Shown here: piece after piece, positions 3 to 61,279 of the stretch
Position numbering within the stretch: position 1 is the first letter of the stretch
How the letters are laid out: each line of letters opens with the position of its first letter
Source: a virus
Length of the DNA stretch: 64,000 nt
Virus record (IMG/VR): IMGVR_UViG_3300034062_007046
Coordinates: 18,846 to 82,845 of that record
Strand: one strand, 5' to 3'
The notes under the pieces: model-generated
What the model saw: only the letters and a program-made list of their open reading frames with translations
What the model was told of the DNA's origin: nothing
Database searches by the model: none
Program-made: the position numbers and the translations under genes

Positions 3-1127
3 ATTTATAGATCTGTTACAAATAAAGACCCTAACTCTGCTACATTAGCAAAAGAAATTTTAAAACCATTTATAGTGCCAAGAAGATTTACTTTTGAAAG
101 TGAAATCGGCGCTTCATATATTCAATTCGGAGCAAGCTCCGACGTGACAGTACCAGATAATTTGAGTATGATTACAGACCCTGCAAACGCAATTTTGCAG
201 TTACATGGCAAAGAATATATTTCAAGCGATACTTTTGATCCGACAAGATTAACAAACAGCGATAAACTTGGTATTAGCCCTTCAAATACAGTTTTGACGG
301 TGACTTATCGCTATGCACAGACAAATGCTGGTGCTAACTTTGCAATCGATTCTCTAAACGAAGTTATAACTCCACAGTTTGCTTTTAACGATGAACAAAA
401 TTTATTACAAACAACGATTGCCTCTGTGATTTCTTCTCTTGAAGTAACTAACGAAACACCAATTGTTGGAGAAGCTAATACTTTTGATTCTAAAGAGCTG
501 AAGATAAGAATTCAAAATTCGTTTTCAACACAAAATAGAGCGGTTACAGCAGAAGATTATAAATCCTTATGCTATACAATGCCAAAGAAATTTGGCTCTA
601 TTAAAAGAATTAATACAGTTAGAGACGATGATTCCTTAAAAAGAAATTTAAATATTTATGTTTTATGCGAAGATTCTAATAGTTTTTTAACCGAAGCAAA
701 TCAAATAGTAAAAACAAATTTAAAAACCTGGCTTTCAAGAAATAAAATGTTAAATGACTCTATAGATATTCTTGACGGAAAAGTGGTAAATTACGGAATA
801 GAATTTGTTGCGGTAGGATCAAATAATAGACCTAAATATGACATCCTGACTGATGCAATTTCACAGTTAAAAATTGATTTTTCTACTTTACCTGATTTTG
901 GAGAAACTTTTTTTATAACAAATGTCTTAAGCAGCCTTAAAAAAGTTGATGGCTTATTAGATGTGATTAGCGTAAAAATAGTTCCAAAAAATGGTGGTGT
1001 ATATTCTGATAGCATATTTAGCTTTGAAGACAATACTTCGGCAGACAAAAGGTATATAAACATTCCATTAAATGTTGTAATGGAATTAAGATTCCCCAAC
1101 TCAGATATTAAAGGTACAATAATCTAA
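3..1127 (+). CDS. Baseplate wedge subunit (T4 gp6 / baseplate J-like), 5'-partial
   Basis: Frame is open from the window start. Contains the gp6/J-type motif 'QNRAVTAEDY' and 'YIQFG'. Confidence 0.8.
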   Translation: MYRSVTNKDPNSATLAKEILKPFIVPRRFTFESEIGASYIQFGASSDVTVPDNLSMITDPANAILQLHGKEYISSDTFDPTRLTNSDKLGISPSNTVLTVTYRYAQTNAGANFAIDSLNEVITPQFAFNDEQNLLQTTIASVISSLEVTNETPIVGEANTFDSKELKIRIQNSFSTQNRAVTAEDYKSLCYTMPKKFGSIKRINTVRDDDSLKRNLNIYVLCEDSNSFLTEANQIVKTNLKTWLSRNKMLNDSIDILDGKVVNYGIEFVAVGSNNRPKYDILTDAISQLKIDFSTLPDFGETFFITNVLSSLKKVDGLLDVISVKIVPKNGGVYSDSIFSFEDNTSADKRYINIPLNVVMELRFPNSDIKGTII

Positions 1128-2554
1128 TGCCATTCAAAAAATACGTAGCGAGTAAAGATACTACAATAACAAATGCTTATAGATTAGATCTTATTAATAG
1201 AGCCACAGATGCTAATATGGGTGCTTCTGACTCTCTTGAGATGTTTTCGATATATGGTCAAGCAAACTCCTCCTCAGTCGAAAAAAGCAGAATTTTAGTA
1301 CAGTTCCCGACAACGGACATAATCGCAGACAGAAATTTATCGAGAATACCATCTTCTGGTAGTGTTAAGTTTTTTCTTAGAATGTTTAACGTAGAGCATC
1401 CTTTTAGCGTGCCAAGAGATTATACAGCAAGTGTCGCCGCTCTGTCTCAATCTTGGGATGAAGGATATGGTTTGGATATGGAATCCTATACAGATAAAGG
1501 CTGGAGCGCACAAATGGTCGGCGCTGGTGCAACATGGATTTATTCTGTTAGTGGTACTTTATGGTCAACGCAAGGCGGTTCTTTTTTAACTTCGTCCGAT
1601 TATAATTTTAATGTTCCATTTTCATCTGGTTTGGAAGATATAGAATTAGATGTCACAAAGGTAGTAGAAGATTGGATGGCAGGAACCATTAGTGACAACG
1701 GTTTTATTATTAAACTGTCTGGGGCGTTTGAACAAGGTGATCAGTTCCGCAGCTTTTATACAAAAAAATTCTCAGCCAGAGGGTCTCAATTTTTCTATAA
1801 AAGACCGATAATTGAAGCTCGTTGGGAGGCGGTAGTTAAGGATGATAGGAATCAGTTTTTTGCTTCAAGTAGCTTACTGAATGCAGAAGACAACACCATG
1901 AATCTATATTTTTATAATAAAGTTGGCGGTGTATCCAAAAACATAGTTGGTAATATTTTACCAGGAGTTAAATTTTATTCGAATTCTTCTCTTACGAACG
2001 AAGTTTCTTCTGCGTATTTAAGCGTTACAAACCCTTCTGTTGGCGTCTATAAAGCGAGCGTTGCTATAAATACGACTGCAAGCGTTCTTTACGATAAATG
2101 GTACAATACAAGCTCTTCTGGTACTATCTTTTCAAGCTCTTTTGATGTTCTGCAAAGAGAAAATTATGACTACGAGTATGCGCCAGAGTACATTATAAAC
2201 ATTAACAATCTTAAAGTTACTTATAACGAAAACGAATCTGCGAGATTTAAAATTTTTGTCAGAGAAAAAGATTGGCAACCAACAATATACACAGTTGCAT
2301 ACAATACTGTAGAAAATTCAGTAATTACAGATCTTTATTACAAAATTTTTAGACTTAATGATAATTATACAGTAGTAGATTACTCTACTGGTTCGTTAGC
2401 TTATACCAAAACTTCTTATGATTCAAATGGCAATTATTTTGATTTGGATATGAAAAATATTGAAAAAGGATATGTTTATGGTATAAAATTAGCGAGATGG
2501 AATGGATTAGAATTAAAAGAATTCCAAAACGTTTTCAAATTTAAGGTTGAATAA
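1127..2554 (+). CDS. Virion structural protein with DNRLRE-like domain
   Basis: Motifs ASKDTTI, SRILVQF, SWDEG, DVTKVVEDW..NGFII, RPIIE resemble the DNRLRE domain; lies in the baseplate cluster. Confidence 0.55.
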   Translation: MPFKKYVASKDTTITNAYRLDLINRATDANMGASDSLEMFSIYGQANSSSVEKSRILVQFPTTDIIADRNLSRIPSSGSVKFFLRMFNVEHPFSVPRDYTASVAALSQSWDEGYGLDMESYTDKGWSAQMVGAGATWIYSVSGTLWSTQGGSFLTSSDYNFNVPFSSGLEDIELDVTKVVEDWMAGTISDNGFIIKLSGAFEQGDQFRSFYTKKFSARGSQFFYKRPIIEARWEAVVKDDRNQFFASSSLLNAEDNTMNLYFYNKVGGVSKNIVGNILPGVKFYSNSSLTNEVSSAYLSVTNPSVGVYKASVAINTTASVLYDKWYNTSSSGTIFSSSFDVLQRENYDYEYAPEYIININNLKVTYNENESARFKIFVREKDWQPTIYTVAYNTVENSVITDLYYKIFRLNDNYTVVDYSTGSLAYTKTSYDSNGNYFDLDMKNIEKGYVYGIKLARWNGLELKEFQNVFKFKVE

Positions 2555-2556: not shown

Positions 2557-5500
2557 ATGTCAATAAAAGATTTATTTGGTAAAAAATCAGAAGGTATAGT
2601 AGCGTCACAACAAGTACAATCTCTATATGACGATGCAGAATCGGAAGGCTTTTTAACTGAAAAAAGAAAAGAGAACGAAAGGTTTTTACCCTCTGTAGAT
2701 TTTTTAACTGCTTCAAATTTTGCCAGATACGGCTCCGCTGAAAAGTACTATTCGGACGCTATTAAAAATATTTATCAAACCTATCCTTATGATGGATCTA
2801 AAAAAGAAAAAACAGAATGGAGAAATTCTGTCTCTCAACTGGATTTATATGTTTTAGATAACATCTATCCAAAAACTACTGGTTATGTTATTTTTAATTC
2901 ATCTTCACAACAATATGTAACAGTAAAAGGCGGTCCAAATACTGCTTCTTCTGGTAAGTTTGTTGACGCGAACATATACGATTTAAGTAAAAATAGAGAA
3001 TCAAATTTAGCGTTAAATCCATTAAATTTAGGTAATACTGTAGAGTTTTGGTATAAGGAGTCTGGATCTAACGCGTCAACATATGCGTTATTTGATCTCT
3101 GGAACGGTGCTTCTTCTGGCTCTGTTAGTTATACAAGATTTTTAATTGAAAAAGTTTCATCTGGGTTTAGACTAACTTATTGCTCTGGAACCTCTGGTGT
3201 GCAAAATGCTTCTATTGCATACACGCATGACATAAATAACTGGCACCACTATGCGTTCTCGGTTAACTCAGCTTCAACTGGATTAAATCTTTGTTTGTAT
3301 GTTGATGGTGATTTAGTAAATAATTCTATTACAGGTTCTGCTTTTTACGAAATAGCAAATAATGCTAATTCTATAGCTAATTTAGGCGCTTATAGAACTG
3401 GTTCTGCCGTTTATGTTAATGGAGCATTTGACGAATTTAGATTTTGGAAAGAAGCAAGAAGTTCAAAAAAAATTAGTAGATATTGGTTTACAAATGTCGA
3501 TGGTGGCGCAAACACAGACGATTCAAACACTGAACTCGGCATTTATTTTAAATTTAACGAAGGGATATTATCATATAATTCCGTAAACCAATACGATACT
3601 CAATGCTTGGATTACTCGGGTCGTATCTCAAACGGCTCAATAATAAATTACACGGTCGCGGTCAGGAGTACTGGTTCCGCTTTAGAAAGCTATTCGTCTG
3701 ATTTTGTTGAACAAAAAGACCCAGTAGTGTATTCGATACATCCAGACGTTCAAGCAGTTTTGACTGAATACTCTCAGCTTGGTTTCGAGCACGATAAAAT
3801 CAATAATAGTAGCATATATAAGTCTATACCTTCTTGGATAACTGAACAGCAGGAAGATATTCAGGGCGAAGATTTATCTAATCTAACTCAAATTATTTCA
3901 AGTTATTTTGATACTCTGCATTTACAAATAGAAAACTTAACTAAACTTAAGGACATAAAGTATTTTTCAGATGGCGAAAAACCACTACCATTTATAAATA
4001 AAATACTTTCTTCTTATAACTTTAATAATTTAGAGATTTTCAATAATACTACATTTTTAGAAGACTTATTATCAAGAAATGAAACTGATGAATTTGAAGA
4101 AAGTTTGTTTGATATAAAAAATACAATTTATCAAAATATCTATAACAATTTAATTTATATTTATAAGTCAAAAGGCACAGAAAAATCTCTAAGAAATCTT
4201 ATAAGATGCTTTGGCGTAGACGATGAATTAGTAAAAATAAATCTATACGCGGATAACGCACAATATAATTTAACGAATAAATATCAATATGTTTCAACTC
4301 CTAAAAAGTTTGTCGATTTTAATGACGAAGATCGGTTTGAAGCCGTTGTTTATCAAAAAGCTTTTAGCGGCGACTCCAACACAAGAGGGTATATAAAAGG
4401 AGAAAGCTCGGGAAAACTAAGTTATATTCCTGTGACGCTTCAAGCAGAAATAATATTTCCAAAAAAAGTTGATTACGACAATCCAAATTATATAATCCCA
4501 GAATTTACAACAGTTTCTTTGTTTGGCGTTCATACTGCAAACAATAATCAAAATATTTTAACTTGGGGAAATGATGAATTTAACTTTCAAGTATATGCAG
4601 AAAAAAGAAACTTTGAGAGCAAAGATGTATATTTTAGATTATCGGGCTCGTTGTCAGGAAGCAGCTTCCAGCTAACATCAAGCTGGTACAACGAAACCTA
4701 TGACAACAATAAGTGGAACCTTGCAGTAAGAATTAAGCCACAAAAAATAGAAAATGTTGATTTGGTGTCTGGCTCCTCAACTGGCGATTATGTCGTTGAG
4801 TTTGTTGGTTTTAACACAACCTTAGACAATATTGATGATAGTTTTATCCTTTCTGCTTCGATACCAGAAGCTAATGCTAAATCTGCTTTATCTAAAAATA
4901 AAAGAGTTTATGCAGGCGCTCATTATCAAGATTTTGATCCAATGCAATTAATGGCAAAAACTGACGTAAAAATCTCGTCTGTTCGGTTTTGGCATGATTA
5001 CTTGAACGATGAAGAAATTAAAAATCATTCATATGATTCTTCTAATTTTGGTCGAGAATACCCATATTGGAATGCTTTCTTGACTCAAACAGATGCTAAC
5101 AGTTTGATGCTAACGAAAGCAGATTTATTAACATTAAATTGGGATTTTGCGGTTGTCACAGGATCGGATTCAAGTGGAGAATTTTTAGTCGAGGATGCCT
5201 CTTCTGGATCTGTCGCTGCTGCTACAAAATATGGTGTAGGTTGGCTTGGAGATATCCTTTTTTATAGGCATACTGGTTTAGGAACCCAATTTTATCCAAG
5301 CGACTCACAGGTTGTTAATAAGGAATTTATCTATTCAGCGAAGCTGCAAACCCCAGAAACCTTGGCTGGTTCAGATTTGATACAAATTAGAAACACTGAT
5401 GATATTGAATCAACAAGAAACACCAAGCCAGTAACATACTTCTATTCAGTAGAAAAAAGTATGTCACAAGTTATTAACAACGAAATTATTAATTGGTTTT

Positions 5501-8500
5501 CTACAATAAATGCGTTTAATAATTTAATAGGCGACCCATCGGAGCGTTATAGAAGAGAATATAAAAACTTATCTTATTTAAGAAAGTTGTTCTTTGAAAA
5601 GGTTCAAAATGAACCAAGCTTCGAAAGATTCATAGAATTCTATAAGTGGATCGATTCTTCTATCTCTATGATGATAGCACAGCTTGTACCAGCTTCTGCA
5701 AACATATCAGAAAACGTTCGAAACGTTGTTGAAAGCCATTTATTAGAGAGAAATAAATACGAAAATAAACTTCCAACAATAGAAGCAAAGGGTGAAATAA
5801 CAGCTACTACGAGTAACTTTAGAACTTATGGTAACCCAAATGATCAACGCGCGCCTAACAATCCAACTGGCAGCACTTGGTTAAAGCTTAGAGCAGAAAG
5901 AACACACCCATTAGTTACATCTGGCGATGCAAATACAGACGCAAATAGAGAAACTATTAGAGAAGTTTTAATCGGAAAAAATTTAAATAAAGTTCCTAAA
6001 CAATATGATACGCAAACGCAACAGTTTTATGAAGGCAAAAGAGATTTAGTCAGAGGTTACGCCTCCATAAATACAATTAGCAGTAGCTTGTTAGAAAACC
6101 CAGAAGACTCAATAAGACCAGTGACTGTTGAAAATAGTAGATTCACATCAGATTTTCAATTTGCAAGCGCGAGCGTAACTGGTTCTGGGCAAATATTAAA
6201 AAAAGATAACAAAATCGGTAATTTTAGGAATACATATGAATATTTCCAAACGTCTGGTCGTTCAGATGTTAATTTAAAACTACCAGAAGTAGCGGAACAG
6301 CTATTGAGTTCTTCTACAGAGAGCGCAGTTGACGGAATTTTTGAAAGAACACTGCCAACAAGACCAGTAGTTAAGACTGTAATAGTTGAAAAATTCTCTG
6401 CTCCCGGTGGTCCTGAAGTTATGAGTAGGGGATATTTGGATGCCGCCTCTGAAGAATTTTCTGTATATAACGGACTAAACAACAGAAATTCTTTGGTCAG
6501 AAAAAATTTGAATAAATGGTCAGCAGAATCCGCAAGCATTGATGTAGAGAGTCCGTCATATCACAAAGTAAACAAAAATACTGGCTATACAGTAAATGAT
6601 AACGGTACTTCTAATCCTCAATATGATAACAGCTTTATCCAACATCAAATTCCAAGAAGCGATGCACAATATTCTTGGATTACTGCCTCTTTGATTAGCA
6701 AGCCAAGCGCAAGCGGATACTTCAGCGAATACGATAATTTAAATGTTTATAATAGCAGTTCTGCTCAGTTCCTCTCTGCTTCCGTTTCTGGTTCAAGCAC
6801 GCTTGATTTTATTGGATTAAATACAAATATTCAAGTTGTAGCTGATGAAGCAACCAATACTCTTTCTGCTTCAAATGTAAGCGATTTAAACAAATACTTA
6901 TTGAATATCAACGGTCCTTACGGAAATGCTTCATGGAAGCAAATTCGTCAATCATTTAATAAGATTGTTAGCCTTTCAAGAAAAAACAATAGAATTTTGG
7001 TGCAAGACCGCCCGCAACAAAAAACAAAAAATGAAAAAGGCTTCCTAAGATTTTTTACACCAAGACAAAGCGACACATTTACAAGCTATATAGAGCCACC
7101 AGTTTCATATAACCTACCAATGACCCACGTTGTATCAGTCACTGGCTCTAAGTTGCCAATTGAAATTGTCAGCACATACGACAATAACAAAGAAAAACTT
7201 GCTAATGAAGCCTTAATAAAAGTTTTGGGCGTAAAAGAAAGAACAGAACCACAAACTCACGATGTTTTAAAGAATCTTGAAAATGGCTTATATGAGCCAA
7301 GACCTTCAATAAAAGAAGTTGTCTATCAGCAAAATATATTTCCAAGAAAAGATAAAGTCGGTACAAAAGAGACAAGAACAAGACCAGAATATGCAGAAGT
7401 CGCTGGTACAGGTTCAAATGGATATGATCGCAATATAGCAAAGATTAGAAGCTTCTGGAGAAATAACGTAAATAATAGAATTAGAACTATTGGTAGTGGA
7501 ATTACTGGGTCTATCAATTCATTAAATTATCCAAGGCTACAATCAAATACTTCATCACTATCGTTTCAAGGAGCTTTTATCAACACGATTTTTACTTACG
7601 AGCCTACTGGTACAATAACTTATACAGCTTCTTTAACGAACGAAATAGACACGGTCTGGAGTATTGACAATGAATATACCAATTTTTCATCGTCTGTACT
7701 GAGCAGCTCTTCGCAGGTCTCAGCCAATTACACATATTCAAGTTCTTATTTTGGCGAATTGTCAACATATAAGCTTCACGAAAAAATATTATTAAACTTA
7801 CAGCCAAGTGGTACATATACAACTGAGAGTGTCGTGAACTCGGTCGGTGCCGCTTCTACTAAATATAAATTTACGTATCAAAGCGGAAGCTACCGGGTTA
7901 TACCAAGACCACAATTCGCATTTTTTGATAATCCATATGCGTCAAGAAATGATTTTTCATCATTAACGAATCGCAGTGCTTCATTATATTATTTTGATGT
8001 TTTGCCTTACAAAACCAATGTTTTATCTAATAATTCTCCTTGGTATGATTCTTATGAAGATTTTTTTGAAGATATAAAACCTTATTCAAAAAAGTATTCT
8101 TTAGCACCAGAATATAAAATCAATAATTTAATTGATTTTTATTTTAAGGAAAATAATGGAAATTTTGATGTGCCGCTTACAGCAAGCTATTTATCGTTGG
8201 ACGGCGCTTCAGCGGACTACGACGCAGTACAAACTGGTTATAATTCGTCCGATGAATTAAATAATTTTATTTTTGAGCAAGATAACGGAGAAAAAAGCAT
8301 TAAAATAAAAATTAATGCCGTCAAAAAGCTATTGCCATATAAAGGTTTTTATCCTCAAGAAAGAGCCGTTCAAGTTGTAGATTATTTTAGGGATTCTTTC
8401 TTTGGGCTGACTGACCAGCAAATTTTAACTGGTTCATTTTCAACATCTCCATCAACAACAAGTGGATCGACTCCTGTTGATCAGCAAATAGCAACAGTTT

Positions 8501-18703: not shown

Positions 18704-18704
18704 T

Positions 18705-18935
18705 ATGTCATTTAAAAAATTTGAAAAAAGTGATGTTTTTAAAAATGTTGTAAAAACAACTCCTTATTTTGAATTTAAAATTTATGGTGGAAAAGTATAT
18801 TTAAATAATTCTCTTAGAGGATATACGGATTTAAACACTTTAAAGGAAGCGCCCGCTATTTCAGCTGGTTGTGATATTCCAAACTCTTTTGATTTCTCTT
18901 GTGAAGATAACTCATACAATGTTTCACTTGTTTAA
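18705..18935 (+). CDS. Small protein; probable detached N-terminal part of the 18944 protein
   Basis: Tightly packed 76-aa ORF; 'MSFKKFEKSDVF' resembles the N-terminus of paralogue 17576 ('YKSFLDDDIV'). Confidence 0.55.
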   Translation: MSFKKFEKSDVFKNVVKTTPYFEFKIYGGKVYLNNSLRGYTDLNTLKEAPAISAGCDIPNSFDFSCEDNSYNVSLV

Positions 18936-18943
18936 CATGAAAA

Positions 18944-21733: not shown

Positions 21734-21737
21734 AAAA

Positions 21738-44017: not shown

Positions 44018-44020
44018 AAA

Positions 44021-48896: not shown

Positions 48897-49298
48897 ATGT
48901 CAATTCAAGGTTTTGAATATCCAAAAGCAGGGTTAGGAAATGTTGCAAGTTATCAAGTGAGCGGTATTCCTTGGGTAACTTCTTCTCTAACAGCTCCTGC
49001 ATCTTCCTCTGTTCCATTAGAGATTAATTTTCCAAGCGTTACAAAAAGTATTCTTGTTAAAAATATTAATCCCACAACTAACAAAATTAGAGTTGGCTTT
49101 AGCGCAAATGGCGTTAAAGGAACAAATTATCTTTTAATAGAAAAAGATGAATCATTTGAAGCCGATGTTAAAATAACAAAACTATACTTGTTAAGCGACA
49201 CATCGGGTTCTGCTATTGCATCTGTAGTTGCGTCTCTTACAGGAATTGATACAAGTTCGTTGCCTAATAGCTGGTCTGGTTCTTCTGGTGTAGGATAA
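48897..49298 (+). CDS. Small virion (head decoration-like) protein
   Basis: 133 aa Ser-rich beta-type protein in the head module. Confidence 0.5.
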   Translation: MSIQGFEYPKAGLGNVASYQVSGIPWVTSSLTAPASSSVPLEINFPSVTKSILVKNINPTTNKIRVGFSANGVKGTNYLLIEKDESFEADVKITKLYLLSDTSGSAIASVVASLTGIDTSSLPNSWSGSSGVG

Positions 49299-49319
49299 AT
49301 TTAATAGGGGGCTCTTAAC

Positions 49320-51448: not shown

Positions 51449-51449
51449 A

Positions 51450-52448
51450 ATGAAAGTATTAGCAACGTTGACAGTTTCCGGTGGTTTAAACATGGCTTCA
51501 ACAGCCAAAGACGAATTTACTATTGGAACACCTTTAGAAAATAATAATGGTCTTATAGATAATTTAACGGTCTATGCTAATGCTGATTTTAAAAATAATG
51601 TAATTATAGGAAGCAGCTCTACTGATACATTGCTCATCAATTCCAAGACAACTGCCTCTCAAGACTTATTTCTTAATAATGCTAATTTACTTATTAGTGG
51701 TTCTGGTACGATTTATTATAATGGCATGGATGTTTTTGCGTCTATGGACGGTGGCGCAAATGAAGGTGACGGTGAAGAACAAACTGTAACTGATATCGTG
51801 TCTGCTGGCGAAATTTTAACTTCAAGAAGTGGTTCTACGATAACGCTAACATTTAATACAGCTTCACTTGATGGTTATAAATTCTTACTAAATTCTTCAA
51901 ATTATACTCCTCAAGCTGGTGAAAAGACAATCTATTTTTCATTTGAACCGCACTATTCGGCTGTAACTTATTTTGATGCAAATTCGCAAGGATTAAACTT
52001 GAAACGCGCAGATTATGCAGTTTCAAATTTAAGTATGTCGATAAACCTCCCGCCAGTCCAAACTCATTTAGGCAAGACATTTACTTTTATAAATGCTACA
52101 TATGTCGGTAAATATACAGATTTTAATTCTATTGGGTATTCTTCTTCTGCTGGCGGATTAACTACAATAAATGGTAGGTATTCTGTTCATAAAATAATTT
52201 TTTATCCATACTCAAGTGGAAATTATACAGATTATATTGGATCTGGAAAATTAACCGAAACCAATATCTTAGAAACTTATTTAATAACAAATAACATAAA
52301 AGACTATATAATGGTTGTAGGTCATGAAAATGAAACAGACCAGCATAATTTTATTACGTTACAAGCAGTTTCATCAAGTCAATTTGGTTACACTTGGATG
52401 ATTAGGGACGTAAATGATTATCAGCCATTCTCCATAGCAGCAATTTAG
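51450..52448 (+). CDS. Fibre-like virion protein
   Basis: 'VIIGSSSTDTLLIN' fibre-like motif and 'INLPP..GKTFTFIN'. Confidence 0.5.
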   Translation: MKVLATLTVSGGLNMASTAKDEFTIGTPLENNNGLIDNLTVYANADFKNNVIIGSSSTDTLLINSKTTASQDLFLNNANLLISGSGTIYYNGMDVFASMDGGANEGDGEEQTVTDIVSAGEILTSRSGSTITLTFNTASLDGYKFLLNSSNYTPQAGEKTIYFSFEPHYSAVTYFDANSQGLNLKRADYAVSNLSMSINLPPVQTHLGKTFTFINATYVGKYTDFNSIGYSSSAGGLTTINGRYSVHKIIFYPYSSGNYTDYIGSGKLTETNILETYLITNNIKDYIMVVGHENETDQHNFITLQAVSSSQFGYTWMIRDVNDYQPFSIAAI

Positions 52449-54732: not shown

Positions 54733-56508
54733 ATGTCAAACGGAATGTTAGAAAGATTAACAGAAGGCGTCGTTGAACGCAACATGTTAAAGGAAACCGA
54801 AGCAGTTGTTTCCAAATGGGAAAAGTCAGGTCTATTAGAAGGTCTAAAGTCAACTCGTCAAAAGAGCACAATGGCAGTTCTCTTAGAGAACCAAGCTAAA
54901 GAATTACTAAAAGAATCAACCACAATGGCTGGTGGTGACGTACAAGGTTTCGCAGCAGTTGCGTTCCCAATCGTCCGCCGCGTATTTGCTGGCTTGATTG
55001 CTAACGATCTCGTAAGCGTTCAACCAATGAGCTTGCCATCAGGTCTTGTATTCTTCATGGATTTCAAGCGTGGTACAGACGTTGGTAATATCGGTGATCG
55101 TGTATTTTCACAAGATGAATCATTCTTCGGTGATCGTTTGGGCGTGCAAATCACTGGCGGTGTTCGTGTTGATGGTGTTGCATTCGCTGAAAAAGGTTTC
55201 TACAACATGGCAAATGGTTATAACACATCACGTTATAACACATTCGTACCAACAGCCAGCGTAGTCGAAGTTGCAACATTCGGTGTTGCAGGTGCTACAG
55301 CCGAACAAAAATCATTAGTACGTTGGGATGCCGACTTATTAAATGATTCAACCGTAGTATCGGCTTCAGTTCTCGAAGTTGCTCTTTCCGCGTTATCACA
55401 AAGCGCGCTATTAGCGGTACAAGACGTATTCGCGCTTTCAGTTGCTCAAGCTGCCTCTTATGTAGCTGGTACAGCTGGCGATGCAACAGGTTCAGCACTT
55501 GGTGGCACTACACCAAGAGTTATTCGTCGTCTAAGCAAGATCATCCAAAGCGGTTCATCTGGTGCAACAGCTGGTGTACCAGCACTACAATTCGTAGTTG
55601 CTGCTGGCGGTTCAGCTGCTAAGGCGACTGTTCTTTCAGGTTCACACGCGCTTCTTTCATACCCAATCAAGGACAATCTACAAAGCGTCGGCACAAATGC
55701 TCTCGGCGCTATCGTCGGTGACGCACCTTGGACATTCGAAGGTTCAGCAGCAATTCCAGAAATTGAATTGAAGGTTGATTCATTCTCAATCACTGCTCGT
55801 ACCCGCAAGCTCAAGGCTGCATGGACACCAGAATTAGGTCAAGATTTGAACGCATACCACAACTTGGATGCAGAAGTTGAATTGACCTCAATGTTGTCAG
55901 AACAAATCGGTCTTGAAATCGATCAAGAAATCATGAACGATCTTGTCAAGGGTCAAACAGCTGGCGTTAAGTACTGGTCACGCCGTCCAGGTAAATTCGT
56001 TAACCGTGATTCAGGCGTAGAAATCACTGGTACATACTCACCAGACTTCACTGGTAACGTAAGCATGTGGTACGAAACACTTGTTGAAACAATCAACGAC
56101 GTTTCAGCTCTCATCCACCGTAAGACATTACGTGGTGGTGCAAACTTCCTCGTTTGCGGTCCAGAAGTTGCAAACATCCTTGAATTCACTTCAGGATTCC
56201 GCGCTTCAGTAACTGCTGACGCAGAGAAGGGATCAATCGGTGCAGTTAAGACCGGCGATCTAAACAAGAAGTGGGATGTTATCGTTCATCCATACTTCCA
56301 CCGTAACGTAATTCTTGTCGGTCGTAAGGGTGCAAGCTTCCTCGAAAGCGGATATGTCTATGCTCCATACGTTCCACTACAAAGCACACCAACCATCTTC
56401 GATCCAGACACCTTCGTACCACGTAAGGCTGTTATGACTCGTTATGGTAAAGCAATGGTTCGCCCAGATATGTACGGCTTAGTTGTTGTACAAGATCTAT
56501 TAGGTTAA
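54733..56508 (+). CDS. Major capsid protein (T4 gp23-like)
   Basis: 'AVLLENQ', 'VRRVF..LIANDLVSVQPM..PSGLVF', 'RKLKAAWTPELGQDL', 'YAPYVPL', 'TRYG'. Confidence 0.97.
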   Translation: MSNGMLERLTEGVVERNMLKETEAVVSKWEKSGLLEGLKSTRQKSTMAVLLENQAKELLKESTTMAGGDVQGFAAVAFPIVRRVFAGLIANDLVSVQPMSLPSGLVFFMDFKRGTDVGNIGDRVFSQDESFFGDRLGVQITGGVRVDGVAFAEKGFYNMANGYNTSRYNTFVPTASVVEVATFGVAGATAEQKSLVRWDADLLNDSTVVSASVLEVALSALSQSALLAVQDVFALSVAQAASYVAGTAGDATGSALGGTTPRVIRRLSKIIQSGSSGATAGVPALQFVVAAGGSAAKATVLSGSHALLSYPIKDNLQSVGTNALGAIVGDAPWTFEGSAAIPEIELKVDSFSITARTRKLKAAWTPELGQDLNAYHNLDAEVELTSMLSEQIGLEIDQEIMNDLVKGQTAGVKYWSRRPGKFVNRDSGVEITGTYSPDFTGNVSMWYETLVETINDVSALIHRKTLRGGANFLVCGPEVANILEFTSGFRASVTADAEKGSIGAVKTGDLNKKWDVIVHPYFHRNVILVGRKGASFLESGYVYAPYVPLQSTPTIFDPDTFVPRKAVMTRYGKAMVRPDMYGLVVVQDLLG

Positions 56509-56618: not shown

Positions 56619-57905
56619 ATGGCTTTACCTGTGTTATCGCCTGCTTCACAAATGAGCAAAGTTATATTACCAGTAACGGGTAATACAGCCAATGTTGTTG
56701 GTTCTGCATTACCATTTGGTATTTATACAAGCACAGATTATTGGACGCAAACGCAAGTAGATATGTTTAAAACAGGCGCTGCGGAACAAGTAACCTACAC
56801 ATACAAAAAAATAGGTGGCGATGTATTAGATATTGAATTAGTTGAAGGAAACGTATATGCTGCTTACGAAGAAGCAGTCTTAGAATACTCATACTTAATC
56901 AATCTGCACCAATCAAAGAATTTATTACCATTTGTTCTTGGACAAGCAACAGGAACATTTAACAACGACGGTCAATTAACTGGTTCTGACACTTCTATGG
57001 CAAGTGCTAATTTAGCATTTCCAAAAATGACTTTTAACTATGCAAAAAATATAGCTATAGGTGTTAGCAACGAAGCGCTTTTAAATGGAAATGAGCCTGT
57101 CTATTCAGCTTCTCTTGAGAGACTTGCGGGGGTTCAAGATTACGACCTACAAACAATAATAAGCGCCTCAAGCGCAATTAGCGGATGGGGAGTTGATAAC
57201 AAAAGAGTTGTCATAAGAAGAGTTTATTATAAATCACCGGGTGCAAGCTGGAACTTTTATGGATATTTCGGTGGTCTCAATGTTGTTGGCAATCTGAGTA
57301 CTTATGGACAATATGCGGATGATAGCACCTTTGAGATCATCCCAGCATGGCAAAATAAACTACAGGCTATGGCATATGAAGACGCGATCAAAACAAGAGT
57401 TTCAGATTGGTCATTTCAGATAAGAGATAATAAGCTAAGGCTATTCCCAGTGCCAAACGAATCAAGTCCAACAAACTATTGGGTTGAATTTACTGTTCCA
57501 AGCGATGCTTGGACACCGTCGATTGATTCAAATGGTAATCCAATAACTGATAGCGTTAATGGAATCAATAATATGAATACGATTCCACTACAAAACATAC
57601 CATATGATAAAATTAACAGCATCGGCAAACAATGGATTAGACGATTTGCTTTAGCGTTATGCAAGGAAATGCTCGGACATGTCCGTAGCAAGTTTAGCTC
57701 AGTTCCAATTCCTGGTGATAGTGTCACATTAGATGGTAAAGATCTAATCTCAGAAGCAAAAACAGATCAAAAAGACCTTAGAGAAGAATTAAAGACATTA
57801 TTGGCAGAAATGACATACGTTAAGGTCGGTGAAGATAGTGCTAAGATGATGGAAGACACAAGCAAAGTCCAAACATACGTTCCAAATTTGATATTTGTGG
57901 GATAA
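56619..57905 (+). CDS. Neck protein (T4 gp13-like)
   Basis: 'IGGDVLDIEL' and 'WIRRFALALCKEMLGHVRSKF..PIPG..TLDG'. Confidence 0.8.
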   Translation: MALPVLSPASQMSKVILPVTGNTANVVGSALPFGIYTSTDYWTQTQVDMFKTGAAEQVTYTYKKIGGDVLDIELVEGNVYAAYEEAVLEYSYLINLHQSKNLLPFVLGQATGTFNNDGQLTGSDTSMASANLAFPKMTFNYAKNIAIGVSNEALLNGNEPVYSASLERLAGVQDYDLQTIISASSAISGWGVDNKRVVIRRVYYKSPGASWNFYGYFGGLNVVGNLSTYGQYADDSTFEIIPAWQNKLQAMAYEDAIKTRVSDWSFQIRDNKLRLFPVPNESSPTNYWVEFTVPSDAWTPSIDSNGNPITDSVNGINNMNTIPLQNIPYDKINSIGKQWIRRFALALCKEMLGHVRSKFSSVPIPGDSVTLDGKDLISEAKTDQKDLREELKTLLAEMTYVKVGEDSAKMMEDTSKVQTYVPNLIFVG

Positions 57906-58495: not shown

Positions 58496-61279
58496 ATGCC
58501 AATTGAAAAGTTTAAGTTTGTAAGTCCCGGTGTTCAAGCGCAGGAAGTCGATCAATCACAAATCCCAAGAACACCAGAAGATATGGGACCAGTTATTATT
58601 GGACGTTCCTTGCGCGGTCCTGTTATGCGTCCAGTGAAAGTTGGTTCTTTTTCAGATTTCGTAGATGTATTCGGTGAACCAGTTCCAGGTGGTATTGGTG
58701 GTGACGTTTGGAGAAACGGTAATAAAACTGCTCCAACTTATGCTGCTTACGCCGCTCAAGCTTATTTACGCAATTCATCACCAGTTACTTTCGTTCGTTT
58801 AGCTGGTTATGAAAATCCAGATGAAACTACAGGTGAAGCAGGTTGGGCAGTAACAAACGCTTACGGCTTATTTATTGCGCCAATTGGCGGTTCTGGCGAC
58901 ATATGGTCGATACCAGCTGCTACAGCTTCACTTGGTGCAATTATTTATGCTGGCGCTGGAACTTTTGGTTTAACTGGTAAGCCATTAAGTGGTTCAACAG
59001 AAAGCATTGTTTCTCAAACAGGTAATTGGGTTCGCGTAACTGGAACTAATGGCGAAGTCAAACTAACAGTCTCAGGTTCAACAAAAAGCGTAAATTTTGA
59101 TGAAAATTCTAAAAAATACATCCGTTCAGTATTAAACACAAACCCAGTTCTAACAAATACCGATATCACAAGTGCGCCTGAATCTTATTTCCTTGGTGAA
59201 ACGTTTAAAACTTGGGTATTAGAGAAGCATCCAACATTATCAGGTTCATCTAATTTTGCGGCAATTCTTGTTAGATTAGATAACGGTACAGCAGATTTTG
59301 CAAACCACCAAGTTCAAGCAGAAGATGCCGCAACAGGATGGGTTGTTTCACAACACAAGGGTTTAGCAACTGATTTCGTTGCCAATGGTGCAACTGGTGA
59401 ATATCCAGTACAAAAACTCTTTAAGCTCGTCGGCTTAACTGAAGGTGAATGGAATAGCCAAAATCTTAAAGTAGCTATTGAAGATATTAAAGAGCCACCA
59501 AATGAATTTGTTAAATTTGGTTCATTTACAGTTTCAATCCGTAAAATGGATGATAGCGATTTAGTTCCACAATATGTTGAAAGATTCTCAAACCTTTCAT
59601 TAGACCCCTCATCAGAAAATTATATCGCAAAGAAAATTGGCGATAAGTACACAGAATGGGATTATGAAAAGAAGGCATTTGTTGAATATGGTACATATGA
59701 CAACAAGTCAAAATTTATCCGTGTAGAAATGAATCCAGACGTTGATGCAGCGCTAACAGATCCAGATTTAATTCCATTCGGTTTCTACGGTCCAGCGCAA
59801 TTAGCAGATGTAGCAGTATCAAGCTCAAGCGGTTCAGTAGCAGGAGCTGGCTTTTTCTTAGACACAGCGATTACTGGTAATGCTGCATATACTGCAAGCT
59901 TTGCTCTACAACAACTACCACTTCTAACAACAACAGCTGATTCACCAGCAGCTTCATTAGCTTCTGTTACATTTGGCTTCAAAACAAACGTTGATGGTAC
60001 AAAGAAGTACAATAAAGATATGCCAGACTACCTAAGAGCATATCCAAATGGTTGGACAGAAGATAAGCCTGCATTCTTGTTCTCTCTTGACGATGTTAGT
60101 GCATCGGTAAGCTCTGGATCAATCGTTCAATCAACTCCTGCAACGTGGACAGAAGGAAATAGAGCAGCAACCGGGTCATTAACTGCTTATGGTTCTCAAG
60201 GCACTCTAACATCATCAAATGGTTCAAGATTAGTTTTGGGAACATTCAACAAGTTCGTCATGCCTCTATTCGGCGGCACTGATGGCGTTGACATTACAGA
60301 AAAAGATCCATTCAATACAAGAGTATTGGGACAAACTGGTGCAAATGAATACACCAATTATGCTTACAACAGCGTTAAGGTTGCGGTTGAAAGCATCGCA
60401 GACCCAGAAGTTGTTGAAATGAATCTTGCAGCAATGCCAGGTATTGAAAATGAAGCCCTAACTGGTCTATTATTAGAGAAATGCGAAGTTCGCGGTGATG
60501 CACTTGCCGTTATCGATCTTAAGGGTGATTACGTACCAGAAGAGGGTAAGGCAACACCAAGCACATCAGCAGCAGCTCGTAAACCAGTTGTAGCAGATGC
60601 GGTATCAAATCTAAAGAACCGTGCGATTAATAGTAGCTATGGTTGTGCGTTCTTCCCTTGGGTATTAATCCGCGATAACTTAAACAACAATACCGTATGG
60701 GTACCACCATCAGTTGCAGCCCTTGGTACTTTCTCAAGTTCACAACGTAAGACAGAATTATGGTTTGCACCAGCAGGATTTAATCGTGGTGGTTTAACAG
60801 AAGGCGCAGCTGGTTTACCAGTTCTACAAACTTCACTTAAGCTATCATCAAAAGATCGTGATGCGCTTTACGAGGCAAATATCAATCCAATCGCTTCATT
60901 CCCAAGCGAAGGAATTGTAATCTTTGGTCAAAAGACACTACAAGTAACACCAAGCGCATTAGATCGCATCAATGTTCGCCGTTTGATGATTTACTTGAAG
61001 AAAGAAATCAGCCGCTTTGCAACAACGGTTCTATTTGATCCAAACATCGAAGTAACTTGGAAGCGTTTCACAAATCAAGCTATTCCTTTCCTTGAAAGCG
61101 TCAAATCAAGATTTGGTGTTAGTGAATTCCGTGTTGTGTTAGACGAGACAACTACAACACCAGAATTAGTAGATCGTAACATTGTTTATGCCAAGATCCT
61201 CTTGAAGCCAACACGCGCTATCGAATTTATCGCACTTGACTTCGTAATTACAAATACTGGTGCATCATTTAACGATTAA
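58496..61279 (+). CDS. Tail sheath protein (gp18-like)
   Basis: 'SPGV..EVD', 'WFAPAGFNRG', 'LYEANINPI', 'FGQKTL', 'DRINVRRL', 'PTRAIEFI'. Confidence 0.95.
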   Translation: MPIEKFKFVSPGVQAQEVDQSQIPRTPEDMGPVIIGRSLRGPVMRPVKVGSFSDFVDVFGEPVPGGIGGDVWRNGNKTAPTYAAYAAQAYLRNSSPVTFVRLAGYENPDETTGEAGWAVTNAYGLFIAPIGGSGDIWSIPAATASLGAIIYAGAGTFGLTGKPLSGSTESIVSQTGNWVRVTGTNGEVKLTVSGSTKSVNFDENSKKYIRSVLNTNPVLTNTDITSAPESYFLGETFKTWVLEKHPTLSGSSNFAAILVRLDNGTADFANHQVQAEDAATGWVVSQHKGLATDFVANGATGEYPVQKLFKLVGLTEGEWNSQNLKVAIEDIKEPPNEFVKFGSFTVSIRKMDDSDLVPQYVERFSNLSLDPSSENYIAKKIGDKYTEWDYEKKAFVEYGTYDNKSKFIRVEMNPDVDAALTDPDLIPFGFYGPAQLADVAVSSSSGSVAGAGFFLDTAITGNAAYTASFALQQLPLLTTTADSPAASLASVTFGFKTNVDGTKKYNKDMPDYLRAYPNGWTEDKPAFLFSLDDVSASVSSGSIVQSTPATWTEGNRAATGSLTAYGSQGTLTSSNGSRLVLGTFNKFVMPLFGGTDGVDITEKDPFNTRVLGQTGANEYTNYAYNSVKVAVESIADPEVVEMNLAAMPGIENEALTGLLLEKCEVRGDALAVIDLKGDYVPEEGKATPSTSAAARKPVVADAVSNLKNRAINSSYGCAFFPWVLIRDNLNNNTVWVPPSVAALGTFSSSQRKTELWFAPAGFNRGGLTEGAAGLPVLQTSLKLSSKDRDALYEANINPIASFPSEGIVIFGQKTLQVTPSALDRINVRRLMIYLKKEISRFATTVLFDPNIEVTWKRFTNQAIPFLESVKSRFGVSEFRVVLDETTTTPELVDRNIVYAKILLKPTRAIEFIALDFVITNTGASFND

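What the first reader, a model, noticed from the sequence alone, without database searches (positions are those of the whole stretch)
1127..61279. A [S/T]-[G/A/S]-S tripeptide marks exposed virion proteins only: candidate glycosylation sequon
Seen: hydrophobic-[S/T]-[G/A/S]-S motifs (ISGS, VTGS, LSAS, YTAS, VSSS) are dense in baseplate, fibre, decoration, neck, sheath and capsid proteins. By hand I count at least 7 in the 160-aa ORF at 21738 and about 14 in the 322-aa ORF at 50480. I find none in terminase (525 aa), primase or tail tube, and only one overlapping pair (ATASAS) in the 1043-aa Mre11-Rad50. In MCP and sheath they cluster in the variable insertions, not the conserved cores. The codons vary, so selection is at protein level. 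Established: some mycobacteriophages glycosylate their capsid and tail with their own glycosyltransferases. Inference: this is a virion-wide modification sequon, most likely for O-glycosylation by the DUF2827-like pair, giving a glycan coat.
Basis: partly seen in the sequence, partly recalled or inferred. Interest (0 to 1): 0.9.

Follow-up and report, generated by a model that had tools for sequence, protein, structure and literature searches.

The report
Ser/Thr-Gly/Ala-Ser tag on phage virion proteins

Summary
In 53 ORFs, [ST][GAS]S occurs 222 times against 86.9 expected. The excess survives local shuffles. It is directional: T[GA]S 70/20.6 but S[GA]T 27/20.8. SGS, TGS and TAS top an unbiased scan of 8000 tripeptides.

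The sharpened motif is [ST]-[GA]-S; a middle Ser is only baseline. Sites are dispersed, vary in codon and change position among 81 capsid orthologues. They sit in fibre, baseplate, decoration, neck, sheath and capsid-insertion proteins. They are absent from terminase and portal, and depleted in the tail tube.

The motif is clade-wide: 80 relatives' loci, Flavobacterium phage immuto, Microcystis phage Mel-JY01 and Rhodothermus phage RM378. It is absent from T4 and seven other phages.

The DUF2827 link fails. A complete relative without DUF2827 keeps the motif, and bacterial DUF2827 neighbours are depleted in it. DUF2827 is a GT-B fold enzyme sitting beside a Ser/Thr-rich repeat fibre, its more likely target.

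A better candidate is a clade-specific collinear block of a nuclease and two GT4 glycosyltransferases. It lies next to a sugar island in the window's contig and its closest relatives.

Glycosylation remains unproven; a purely structural motif is the main rival. The scan has reported this motif and the DUF2827-fibre pairing before on other DNA.

The parts
1127..2554 (+). 475-aa baseplate-region protein, weakly motif-enriched
   Evidence: It has 4 [ST][GA]S against 1.1 expected (p 0.02 whole-protein shuffle, 0.08 block-15). Orthologues in G013 and G016 show 10/2.4 and 8/1.1.
2557..10533 (+). 2658-aa giant baseplate/fibre protein with a Laminin_G_3 domain; the largest single carrier of the motif
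   Evidence: It has 35 [ST][GA]S against 5.3 expected (p 0.0005 under both shuffles). Pfam PF13385 matches at E 1e-15.
17576..19924 (+). Two clade-specific virion proteins (375 and 326 aa), moderately enriched
   Evidence: They show 6/1.9 and 3/0.8. The G013 orthologues show 9/1.4 and 10/1.7. Homologues occur in all four clade genomes compared and in none of the six outgroups.
21044..22220 (+). First two genes of the optional fibre cassette (229 and 160 aa); the 160-aa ORF is one of the densest carriers
   Evidence: The 160-aa ORF has 6 [ST][GA]S against 1.2 expected (p 0.0005 block-15). The cassette 21044-35365 is present in G016 and absent from G013, G006 and G015.
22317..24308 (+). 663-aa Ser/Ala/Thr-rich repeat fibre directly upstream of the DUF2827 pair; not enriched in the tripeptide; proposed real substrate of DUF2827
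   Evidence: Composition is S 15.5%, A 17.5% and T 8%. It has 54-nt (18-aa) tandem repeats at 23010-23443. It has 5 [ST][GA]S against 6.0 expected. YadA_stalk matches only below threshold (E 0.031, 15.1 bits against a 28.4 cut-off). BLASTP to a Burkholderia adhesin is not significant (E 12).
24396..26698 (+). Tandem pair of DUF2827 proteins (384 and 379 aa), GT-B fold glycosyltransferase-like
   Evidence: PF10933 matches at E 3.7e-81 and 5.9e-76. The AlphaFold2 model has pLDDT 90.6. Best Foldseek hits are GT4 enzymes BshA and MshA, then OGT, T4 alpha-glucosyltransferase and GtfA/B, with E 5e-10 to 2e-7 and TM about 0.4-0.6. Both paralogues keep all 36 invariant columns of a 35-sequence alignment.
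27178..35365 (+). Six further cassette fibre or spike proteins (710, 372, 318, 367, 125 and 785 aa); five carry the motif
   Evidence: Counts are 8/3.6, 6/2.0, 7/1.3, 5/1.7 and 9/3.2. The 125-aa ORF has 0. The 318-aa ORF matches tail-fibre PHROGs and has a collagen-like stretch.
48897..52448 (+). Head-decoration block of 133, 423, 322 and 332 aa; the highest motif density in the window
   Evidence: ORF 49320-50591 has 12/1.4, 50480-51448 has 13/1.9 (both p 0.0005), and 51450-52448 has 4/1.1. The 423-aa ORF matches Phage_cement_2 and PHROG 122 head decoration. The 423- and 322-aa ORFs overlap and are probably one gene.
54733..56508 (+). Major capsid protein; all motif sites lie in the variable insertion domain
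   Evidence: PHROG 138 matches at E 2e-67. There are 5 sites at residues 174, 210, 252, 273 and 302, giving 5/1.4. Across 80 orthologues T[GA]S is 195/61 and S[GA]T 73/61. Motifs occupy 64 alignment columns, 60 of them in under 20% of sequences.
56619..57905 (+). Neck / head-tail adaptor protein
   Evidence: PHROG 211 matches at E 2e-10. It has 3/0.8. Across 65 orthologues T[GA]S is 133/27, S[GA]S 148/31 and S[GA]T 34/27.
58496..61279 (+). Tail sheath; motif sites lie in the non-core N-terminal and middle domains
   Evidence: PHROG 23 matches at E 3e-71. It has 9 [ST][GA]S against 2.3 expected (p 0.001). Of 13 [ST][GAS]S sites, 12 lie before residue 600.
61343..62465 (+). Two tail-tube paralogues: negative control, no motif
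   Evidence: Both have 0 sites. Across 45 orthologues T[GA]S is 2/11 and S[GA]S 3/10, which is depletion. The gp19 Pfam match is below threshold.
42440..45988 (+). Large terminase and portal: negative controls
   Evidence: Terminase has 0 sites against 0.9 expected, and portal has 4 [ST][GAS]S against 1.6. In 8 portal orthologues T[GA]S is 1/3.

Best explanation
[ST]-[GA]-S, usually flanked by hydrophobic residues, is a genuine short linear motif kept at high density on the outward-facing virion proteins of a deep clade of aquatic T4-like phages. Members infect Flavobacterium, Microcystis and Rhodothermus.

Most likely it is an acceptor signal for cytoplasmic O-glycosylation of Ser/Thr in loops and strand ends of folded or folding virion subunits. 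The transferring enzymes would be soluble phage GT4 glycosyltransferases. The best candidate is a clade-specific collinear block of a PD-(D/E)XK nuclease, GT4 no. 1 and GT4 no. 2. This block would be fed by the variable nucleotide-sugar island beside it in the window's contig and its closest relatives.

The DUF2827 pair inside the window is a separate, optional module. It travels with a fibre cassette and probably glycosylates the adjacent Ser/Thr-rich 18-aa-repeat fibre (22317-24308). This mirrors DUF2827 arrays beside Ser/Thr-rich trimeric adhesins in bacteria.

Shown: the motif, its specificity, its distribution, the gene content and the GT-B fold.
Inferred: that any sugar is attached, which enzyme does it, and that the conserved GT4 pair lies just off the 5' end of this contig (from synteny with relative G002).
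For: Motif reality and specificity:
- establish the excess.
- In 105 S/T-rich proteins of 5 clade genomes, position 1 is S 3.07x or T 3.01x. Position 2 is G 3.8x or A 2.2x, with D, E, K, R and H at 0.3-0.6x. Position 3 is S 3.04x, with T only 1.39x.
- In 102 such proteins from 6 outgroups, no value exceeds about 1.6x for G, A, S or T at any motif position.

Dispersed sites:
- Neighbour spacings of 15 aa or less number 23 against 23.2 for random placement.

Outer against inner proteins:
- T[GA]S is 3.2x in capsid orthologues and 5.0x in neck orthologues; S[GA]S is 3.5x in sheath orthologues.
- T[GA]S is 0.19x in the tube, and portal, protease and terminase show no excess.

Clade specificity (T[GA]S / S[GA]S ratios in S/T-rich proteins):
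- G000 3.65/2.95; G013 2.40/2.39; G016 3.15/2.75.
- immuto 2.74/3.41; Mel-JY01 3.36/3.92; G006 3.28/3.45.
- G015 2.76/3.02; RM378 3.75/2.13.
- The outgroups T4, S-RIM2, Moby, GD1, pf16, Det7, S-CBS4 and phiPsal1 range over 0.23-1.65 / 0.72-2.08.

Enzymes:
- The contig start holds 2 GT4 genes, a DegT fragment, a 4,6-dehydratase, two methyltransferases, WbqC and a hexapeptide acyltransferase.
- Of G013's proteins, 12 have BLAST homologues in all of G016, Mel-JY01 and immuto and in none of 6 outgroups. The only ones recognised here as enzymes are three adjacent, collinear genes: a nuclease, GT4 and GT4. The block is also present in G002, and GT4 no. 1 with a weak no. 2 in RM378.
- PF00534 is absent from T4 and from 6 of the 7 further phages searched; the seventh is clade member Mel-JY01.
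- GT4 no. 1 has homologues in only 10 of 50,697 phage records.
- LR756508 is a clade member whose virion orthologues lack the motif (3/2.5 and 7/3.2). It has the nuclease and GT4 no. 1, but no GT4 no. 2 was found beside them.

DNA as target is disfavoured:
- There is no ThyA or hydroxymethylase family gene in G013, G016 or Mel-JY01, while the T4 control is positive.

DUF2827 and the fibre:
- See, G016 synteny, and passages of the preprint 10.64898/2026.01.22.700529.
Against: - There is no chemical evidence of any modification.
- The GT4-motif co-occurrence rests on essentially one clade plus one apparent loss (LR756508). It is therefore few independent events.
- For LR756508 I read only 160 of 484 kb. 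A weak second PF00534 match lies at 466 kb.
- S-CBS4 and phiPsal1 have a distant single homologue of GT4 no. 1 and no motif.
- The conserved GT4 pair was not seen in the window's own contig. Its only syntenic GT4 corresponds to G002's third GT4.
- Fragmentary relatives G006 and G015 show the motif, but their contigs end before the syntenic site. They neither support nor contradict the link.
- The GT4 genes could serve the host envelope or another target. Weak hits to 'GT4 in conflict systems' and the adjacent nuclease hint at nucleic-acid or defence roles.
- Exposure was not measured. The capsid model is poor overall (pLDDT 54.6). It shows only that 5 of 5 sites lie at strand ends or loops of the confident insertion domain, which fits a structural turn motif equally well.
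- Several large virion-module proteins carry no excess.
Confidence: 0.45

Rival explanations
1. The motif is purely structural. [ST]-[GA]-S between hydrophobic residues would be a favoured tight turn or strand cap in the beta-rich surface domains of this clade. It would be inherited and spread by domain shuffling, with no modification. The GT4 genes would serve something else, such as the host envelope, DNA or defence.
For: - In the capsid model, 5 of 5 sites lie at strand ends or in loops.
- Flanks are hydrophobic at -1 and +1, and charges are depleted from -7 to +10.
- In phage immuto's tail spike the word occurs in short-period arrays such as SGSF/TASY, with spacing 6 seen 14 times against 3.5 expected.
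- The GT4-motif link is phylogenetically shallow.
Against: - Orthologous folds in T4 and five other T4-like phages (capsid insertion, sheath, neck) show no excess, and T4 is depleted at 5/19.3.
- Positions turn over while density is kept: 60 of 64 capsid alignment columns are occupied in under 20% of sequences.
- Spacing in the window is random.
- Ser but not Thr at position 3, together with directionality, is hard to derive from turn propensities alone.
- Clade member LR756508 keeps the same folds without the motif.
Confidence: 0.28
2. The motif is read in trans by something other than a glycosyltransferase. It could be the target of another modification (phosphorylation, acylation) or a docking word for an assembly factor. 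It could also be a weak adhesive patch for environmental or host polysaccharide.
For: The same evidence for trans recognition applies: specificity, dispersion and turnover. No chemistry fixes the modification type.
Against: Among clade-specific genes shared by all four clade genomes compared and absent from the outgroups, the only ones I recognised as enzymes were the nuclease and the two GT4 genes. Only 10 of G013's 210 ORFs were scanned against Pfam, so this is weak. There is no precedent for either mechanism that I could cite.
Confidence: 0.1
3. One reading: the tripeptide is the sequon of the DUF2827 pair at 24396-26698, which coats the whole virion.
For: DUF2827 has a GT-B fold. The pair lies among motif-bearing fibre genes. 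G016, which has the pair, also shows the motif.
Against: - DUF2827 is present in only 2 of 16 long relatives' records.
- It is absent from the complete genome G013, and from G006 and G015 at the intact cassette site. All three are motif-rich.
- In bacteria, 16 Ser/Thr-rich neighbours of DUF2827 genes, in 15 of 28 loci, are built of SLSTG[LVI]S-type repeats. They are depleted in [ST][GA]S, for example 5/26.8 and 30/67.8 in L118.
- The fibre directly upstream of the pair is not enriched, at 5 against 6.0.
Confidence: 0.04

Closest known systems
Virion glycosylation of mycobacteriophages by phage-encoded glycosyltransferases (Freeman et al. 2023, Cell Host Microbe). I saw only its reference entry and a one-sentence summary in PMC12619734; the paper itself is not held.
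   Same: Phage-encoded soluble glycosyltransferases are proposed to decorate the phage's own virion proteins in the cytoplasm.
   Different: There the glycans sit at the C-termini of the capsid and tail-tube subunits. Here the candidate sites are a dispersed tripeptide on many outer proteins, and the tail tube is depleted of it. The host phyla and phage lineage differ, and nothing here has been shown chemically.
Ser-rich O-glycosylation signatures: the SASSAS motif of Lentilactobacillus S-layer proteins (passage in PMC10221546), and the GtfA/GtfB pair acting on serine-rich repeat adhesins (the latter recalled; GtfA/B structure 5e9t appears among the fold hits).
   Same: The acceptor context is S-A-S-like, and the transferases are cytoplasmic GT-B or GT4-type enzymes, sometimes acting as paralogous pairs.
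   Different: Those motifs lie in one low-complexity stretch of one substrate. Here single tripeptides are scattered over many unrelated folded proteins.
DUF2827 arrays beside trimeric autotransporter adhesins in Burkholderia, Veillonellales and Pasteurellales (bioRxiv 10.64898/2026.01.22.700529; abstract and three passages read; its supplements were not seen).
   Same: There are two tandem DUF2827 genes, predicted cytoplasmic glycosyltransferases, directly beside a long Ser/Thr-rich repeat fibre.
   Different: The phage fibre is not demonstrably homologous to the adhesins (BLASTP E 12; YadA_stalk below cut-off). The setting is a phage tail-fibre cassette rather than a secreted adhesin.
Flagellin O-glycosylation and autotransporter heptosylation (TibC/Aah). 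Both are recalled from general knowledge and were not checked in a call.
   Same: Both involve cytoplasmic O-glycosylation of surface-exposed Ser/Thr on proteins that later form an extracellular polymer, with sugar-pathway genes nearby.
   Different: As far as I recall, no strict tripeptide sequon is known for these systems. The enzymes belong to other families.

Membership tests
DUF2827 (Pfam PF10933) | Match to the family HMM above the curated cut-off | tested here: met
   The two proteins score 273.2 and 256.1 bits against a cut-off of 25, over nearly the full profile.
DUF2827 (Pfam PF10933) | GT-B glycosyltransferase fold, as inferred in the preprint | tested here: met
   The model has pLDDT 90.6. 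Foldseek's top hits are GT4 enzymes BshA and MshA, with E down to 5e-10 and TM 0.57-0.60. Fold alone does not reveal the acceptor: T4 DNA alpha-glucosyltransferase also matches at TM 0.56.
DUF2827 (Pfam PF10933) | Tandem copies adjacent to a long Ser/Thr-rich fibrous protein | tested here: met
   In the window, the pair directly follows the 663-aa repeat fibre, and G016 has the same order. In bacteria, 15 of 28 loci have a neighbour of at least 500 aa with at least 30% S+T. The other 13 of 28 showed none within the DNA fetched.
   DUF2827 is in 2 of 16 records. The motif excess persists in G013 (complete), G006 and G015, all of which lack it.
   The bacterial neighbours are depleted in it, for example L118 at 5/26.8 and 30/67.8, and L119 at 9/26.8 and 24/47.8. 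Their enriched words are LST, SLS and STG.
Protein O-glycosylation sequon (generic) | Ordered residue pattern enriched beyond global and local composition | tested here: met
   
Protein O-glycosylation sequon (generic) | Sites are solvent-exposed on the assembled particle | tested here: inconclusive
   Only indirect evidence exists. Outer proteins carry the motif and inner ones do not. In the capsid model 5 of 5 sites are at strand ends or loops.
Protein O-glycosylation sequon (generic) | Co-occurrence with a dedicated transferase across lineages | tested here: inconclusive
   The GT4 block is present in G002, G013, G016, immuto and Mel-JY01, and partly in RM378. It is absent from 7 PF00534-negative T4-like outgroups that lack the motif. 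LR756508 lacks both the motif and GT4 no. 2. These amount to few independent events.
Protein O-glycosylation sequon (generic) | A glycan is chemically attached to the motif Ser/Thr | not testable with these tools
   This needs virion glycoproteomics.
GT4 glycosyltransferases (Pfam PF00534) | HMM match above the cut-off in the window's genome | tested here: met
   L110 114-1289 scores 54.9 bits and 3563-4507 scores 42.0 bits, against a cut-off of 26.4. Both lie outside the window, upstream on the same contig.
Trimeric autotransporter adhesin stalk (for ORF 22317-24308) | Significant sequence match to YadA_stalk or to a DUF2827-linked adhesin | tested here: not met
   YadA_stalk scores 15.1 bits against a cut-off of 28.4. 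BLASTP to the L122 adhesin gives E 12. The resemblance is only in composition, repeat organisation and gene neighbourhood.

The most novel reading that the evidence does not exclude
A deep, widespread clade of aquatic T4-like phages would coat its whole particle surface with phage-made glycans. This would happen through a true tripeptide sequon, [ST]-[GA]-S, read in the cytoplasm by a conserved pair of soluble GT4 enzymes. A second, exchangeable DUF2827 system would sugar-coat particular Ser/Thr-rich fibres. That would make a two-tier virion glycosylation system with a defined acceptor code, something not described for any bacteriophage.
Probability: 0.4. Interest if true: 0.85.

Novelty: new variant of a known kind. 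Interest (0 to 1): 0.66.

Why it matters
If the tripeptide is a sugar-attachment code, phages abundant in lakes and oceans would carry a self-made glycan coat specified by a readable sequence rule. That would bear on several things:
- virion stability and stickiness;
- recognition by grazers and by host defences;
- interpretation of the many 'auxiliary' sugar genes in phage genomes;
- engineering of glycosylated phage particles.

It is directly testable. Three clade members that show the motif are cultured: Flavobacterium phage immuto, Microcystis phage Mel-JY01 and Rhodothermus phage RM378.

Even if no sugar is attached, the pattern needs an explanation. It is a three-residue word kept at about threefold excess with positional turnover, only on outer proteins, across hosts from three phyla.

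Separating the DUF2827 pair from this motif also sharpens a second hypothesis. It points to a specific substrate, the adjacent repeat fibre, for an uncharacterised enzyme family that in bacteria sits beside adhesins.

Tried and rejected
Explanations tested and rejected:
- Composition artefact. Whole-protein and block shuffles, permuted-order controls and a Markov-1 model all leave the excess standing.
- DNA-level word. There are 107 distinct nonamers among 156 sites, and both Ser codon families are used.
- Tandem repeat unit. Spacing is random in G000, G013 and G016.
- General property of phage structural proteins. It is absent in T4, S-RIM2, Moby, Paraglaciecola GD1, pf16 and Det7.
- The host Bacteroidetes periplasmic sequon D[ST][AILVMT]. 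This occurs 62 times against 68 expected.
- N-x-[ST]. This occurs 241 times against 234 expected.
- The DUF2827 link.

Work that led nowhere or was limited:
- The capsid protein fold with 61 sequences gave a poor model (pLDDT 54.6). Model coordinates cannot be read in the script box, so solvent exposure was not computed.
- phmmer of DUF2827 against PDB sequences found nothing meaningful (best E 0.25).
- BLASTP of the 663-aa fibre against a Burkholderia adhesin was not significant.
- Mel-JY01's raw S[GA]T excess (114/36) proved to come from one collagen-like GTS-repeat protein. I removed it with a 'Gly at every third position >50%' filter before the S/T-rich comparison.
- The S/T-rich subset (at least 150 aa, S+T at least 16%) is a composition filter, not an annotation of virion proteins.
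- ORF calling in all fetched genomes was a crude longest-ORF greedy method. In GC-rich bacterial loci some listed ORFs are surely spurious.
- In G000 this caller dropped the 322-aa ORF at 50480 because it overlaps its neighbour.
- PHROG and Pfam left most motif-rich ORFs unnamed.

Literature:
- I found no paper reporting a [ST]-G/A-S sequon on phage virions.
- No paper mentions Mel-JY01.
- Two papers mention DUF2827.
- Supplements were not opened, and those of the DUF2827 preprint may list the neighbouring adhesins.
- Complex prediction, the search of protein representatives, the protein-atlas search and the sequencing-run tools were not used.

Full report
**What the window is**

The window is 64 kb of an 82.8-kb viral contig, estimated 41% complete. 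All real genes are on the + strand.

It holds the late region of a T4-like myophage:
- baseplate wedge, terminase, portal, prohead protease and head decoration proteins;
- the major capsid protein, a neck adaptor, the sheath, two tube paralogues and a T4-type baseplate protein;
- an Mre11-Rad50 fusion, a primase and a RuvC-like resolvase.

Its nearest named relatives are distant. Flavobacterium phage immuto has 44% terminase identity and Microcystis phage Mel-JY01 has 43%.

**Checking the observation**

Over 53 ORFs, [ST][GAS]S occurs 222 times against 86.9 expected from composition-preserving shuffles (z 14.6). The ratio stays at 2.0-2.3 when residues are shuffled only within blocks of 30, 15 or 8 residues. 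Local Ser/Thr/Gly richness therefore does not explain it.

The decisive control is order:
- T[GA]S is 70 against 20.6, and S[GA]S is 86 against 28.6.
- The mirror word S[GA]T is 27 against 20.8, and T[GA]T is 15 against 15.5.

In an unbiased scan of all 8000 tripeptides, SGS and TGS rank first and second and TAS seventh; the words ranked between them occur at most 5 times each. TGS, TAS and SGS remain 1.7-1.9-fold above a model that already knows the dipeptide frequencies.

The sites use 107 different nonamers among 156 instances, and both serine codon families. Selection is therefore on the protein.

**Sharpening the motif**

I pooled 105 Ser/Thr-rich proteins from five clade genomes and compared them with 102 from six outgroup phages.
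- Position 1 is S (3.07x) or T (3.01x).
- Position 2 is G (3.8x) or A (2.2x). Charged residues are depleted.
- Position 3 is S only (3.04x). Thr is at the outgroup baseline.

Flanks lean hydrophobic at -1 (P, V, L) and +1 (L, F, V). Charges are depleted around the site.

Neighbouring sites are spaced as if placed at random within each protein: 23 pairs within 15 residues against 23.2 expected. These are independent sites, not a repeat unit.

**Where the motif is and is not**

Seven ORFs are individually significant under local shuffles, and about ten more are nominally enriched. All are baseplate, fibre, decoration, capsid, neck or sheath proteins.

Terminase, primase, the protease, the tube paralogues and all small non-structural ORFs have none. 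The 1043-aa nuclease-ATPase has one overlapping pair.

Not every virion-module protein is enriched. Seven sizeable ORFs are not, including the repeat fibre beside the DUF2827 genes.

In the capsid protein all five sites lie in the insertion domain. In the sheath 12 of 13 lie outside the conserved C-terminal core.

**The motif is a clade trait, not a property of this phage or of phage particles in general**

Across 80 capsid-gene neighbourhoods of relatives (54-79% capsid identity):
- T[GA]S is 896/374 and S[GA]S is 1163/425.
- S[GA]T is 437/374.

In orthologue sets:
- T[GA]S is 3.2-fold enriched in 80 capsid proteins and 5.0-fold in 65 neck proteins.
- S[GA]S is 3.5-fold enriched in 37 sheaths.
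- The tube is depleted to 0.19-fold, and portal and protease show nothing.

In an alignment of 81 capsid proteins, motifs start in 64 different columns. Sixty of these are occupied in fewer than 20% of sequences, yet each protein keeps 1-8 sites with a median of 4. Positions turn over while density is kept.

The same directional excess is present in whole or partial genomes of eight clade members, including immuto, Mel-JY01 and Rhodothermus phage RM378.

It is absent from the following phages:
- T4, where T[GA]S is even depleted at 5 against 19.3;
- S-RIM2, Moby, Paraglaciecola GD1, pf16 and Det7;
- S-CBS4 and phiPsal1.

**The DUF2827 assignment fails**

The two genes at 24396-26698 are full-length DUF2827 proteins. 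A confident model (pLDDT 90.6) has a GT-B glycosyltransferase fold.

The link to the motif is not:
- DUF2827 occurs in only 2 of 16 long relatives' records.
- The whole block 21044-35365 is an optional fibre cassette. G016 shares it. The complete genome G013 lacks it, and so do G006 and G015, where the flanking genes abut.
- All three of these relatives are as motif-rich as the window.

I also fetched 28 bacterial DUF2827 loci.
- Fifteen hold a long neighbour with at least 30% Ser+Thr.
- These are trimeric-adhesin-like proteins built of SLSTG[LVI]S-type repeats.
- In them [ST][GA]S is depleted, not enriched.

A preprint independently notes DUF2827 genes in two or three tandem copies beside such adhesins.

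In the window, the gene directly upstream of the pair is a 663-aa Ser/Ala/Thr-rich protein with 18-residue tandem repeats. It shows no tripeptide excess. The economical reading is that the DUF2827 pair serves this fibre.

Homology of that fibre to the bacterial adhesins is not shown.

**A better enzyme candidate**

The contig begins with a sugar island outside the window. A first-stage note pointed me to it, and I checked it. It contains:
- two GT4 glycosyltransferases and an aminotransferase fragment;
- a 4,6-dehydratase and two methyltransferases;
- a dioxygenase, WbqC and a hexapeptide acyltransferase.

I then asked which proteins of the complete relative G013 have homologues in G016, immuto and Mel-JY01 but in none of six outgroups. 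This gave twelve proteins. Nine lie in or beside the virion module (one is an orthologue of a gene the first-stage note calls the late sigma factor). The other three are adjacent and collinear in every genome: a PD-(D/E)XK nuclease and two GT4 genes.

Further points on this block:
- It is also in G002, the closest long relative. There it lies directly upstream of the orthologue of the window contig's first gene. In the window's phage it probably lies just off the contig end. That is inference only.
- RM378 has GT4 no. 1 and a weak no. 2 side by side.
- GT4 no. 1 has homologues in only 10 of 50,697 phage records.
- The megaphage LR756508 belongs to the clade by its capsid and terminase. Its virion orthologues lack the motif. 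It has the nuclease and GT4 no. 1, but I found no GT4 no. 2 beside them.
- G013, G016 and Mel-JY01 have no ThyA-family hydroxymethylase, unlike T4. A T4-style sugar modification of DNA is therefore unlikely to be the job of these enzymes.

**How strong is this?**

The motif itself is solid.

That it is read in trans is the best explanation of four features: its specificity, its dispersion, its turnover with kept density, and its absence from the same folds in other phages.

The co-occurrence amounts to one clade plus one apparent loss.
- Two siphoviruses with a single distant GT4 homologue show no motif.
- Fragmentary relatives cannot be scored.

The capsid model was poor overall. It shows only that the five sites sit at strand ends or loops of the confident insertion domain. 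That fits an exposed sequon and a structural turn equally well. I could not compute exposure.

**Comparison with what is known**

Phage virion glycosylation is established for mycobacteriophages, at the C-termini of capsid and tail-tube subunits (one-sentence summary in PMC12619734; the original paper is not held). Here the tube is the protein most devoid of sites.

S-A-S-type O-glycosylation signatures exist in Lentilactobacillus S-layer proteins. From recall, they also exist in serine-rich repeat adhesins served by the GtfA/GtfB pair.

I found no paper describing a dispersed tripeptide sequon on phage particles.

Earlier follow-ups in this scan reached similar conclusions on other genomes, for both the tripeptide with a GT pair and the DUF2827-fibre pairing. 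I read them after my own analysis. They are not independent evidence.

**Verdict**

The finding is interesting because three cultured phages allow a direct mass-spectrometric test.

Noticed in passing
window 49320-51448 (overlap 50480-50591; A6 run at 50434-50439): The 423-aa and 322-aa ORFs overlap by 112 nt, and the last ~50 residues of the first look like out-of-frame junk. Reading across an A6 run joins '...IFIGVEQEK' to 'NTNNGSIFVFPRQSMHFHDLSS...' in the other frame. The two are probably one ~700-aa head-decoration or fibre gene, split by an indel or a frameshift.
   Followed up: partly
contig upstream of the window (L110 114-8122): This is a ten-gene sugar island. It holds two GT4 genes, a truncated-looking DegT aminotransferase (203 aa) and an NDP-sugar 4,6-dehydratase. 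It also holds a Methyltransf_24 and a TylF O-methyltransferase, a PhyH dioxygenase, WbqC and a PglD-like acyltransferase. The last gene is a GINT1_N/GH130-like protein.
   Followed up: yes
L108/L109 (phage T4, 70-169 kb): T4 proteins are depleted in T[GA]S: 5 against 19.3 expected overall, and 2 against 9 in S/T-rich proteins. This is the opposite of the clade studied here, and I have no explanation.
   Followed up: no
Mel-JY01 record, 635-8430 (L146): An 805-aa collagen-like protein made of GTS/GSS triplets lies beside a motif-rich 508-aa ORF and a 1227-aa ORF that contains a GT4 domain.
   Followed up: partly
LR756508.1, 100-240 kb and 295-315 kb (L230-L237): This 484-kb uncultured phage shares capsid, sheath (two copies), neck, portal and terminase with the clade. 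Its virion proteins are Ser/Thr-poor (5-8% each) and lack the tripeptide excess. It has the nuclease and one GT4 of the conserved block.
   Followed up: partly
window 22317-24308: The fibre begins with a short stretch resembling an adhesin neck motif (...GDAVRYEQL...). About 330 residues of 18-aa Ser/Thr/Ala/Glu/Arg repeats follow (DNA period 54). No sequence homology to bacterial adhesins could be shown.
   Followed up: yes
window 61343-62465: Two adjacent tail-tube-like paralogues (197 and 171 aa) both hit a single tube gene in G013, G006 and G015. This looks like a lineage-specific duplication.
   Followed up: no
window 37335-40466: Mre11 (Metallophos) and Rad50 (AAA_23/SMC_N) are fused in one 1043-aa protein, and the fusion is conserved in G013, G016, G006 and G015. 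In LR756508 the two parts are separate ORFs.
   Followed up: no
G013 record 152.8-164.8 kb (L094/L095): The complete relative has a much larger modification island than the window's contig. It holds four GT4-type genes and at least five methyltransferases of different families, next to the conserved nuclease and GT4 pair.
   Followed up: partly
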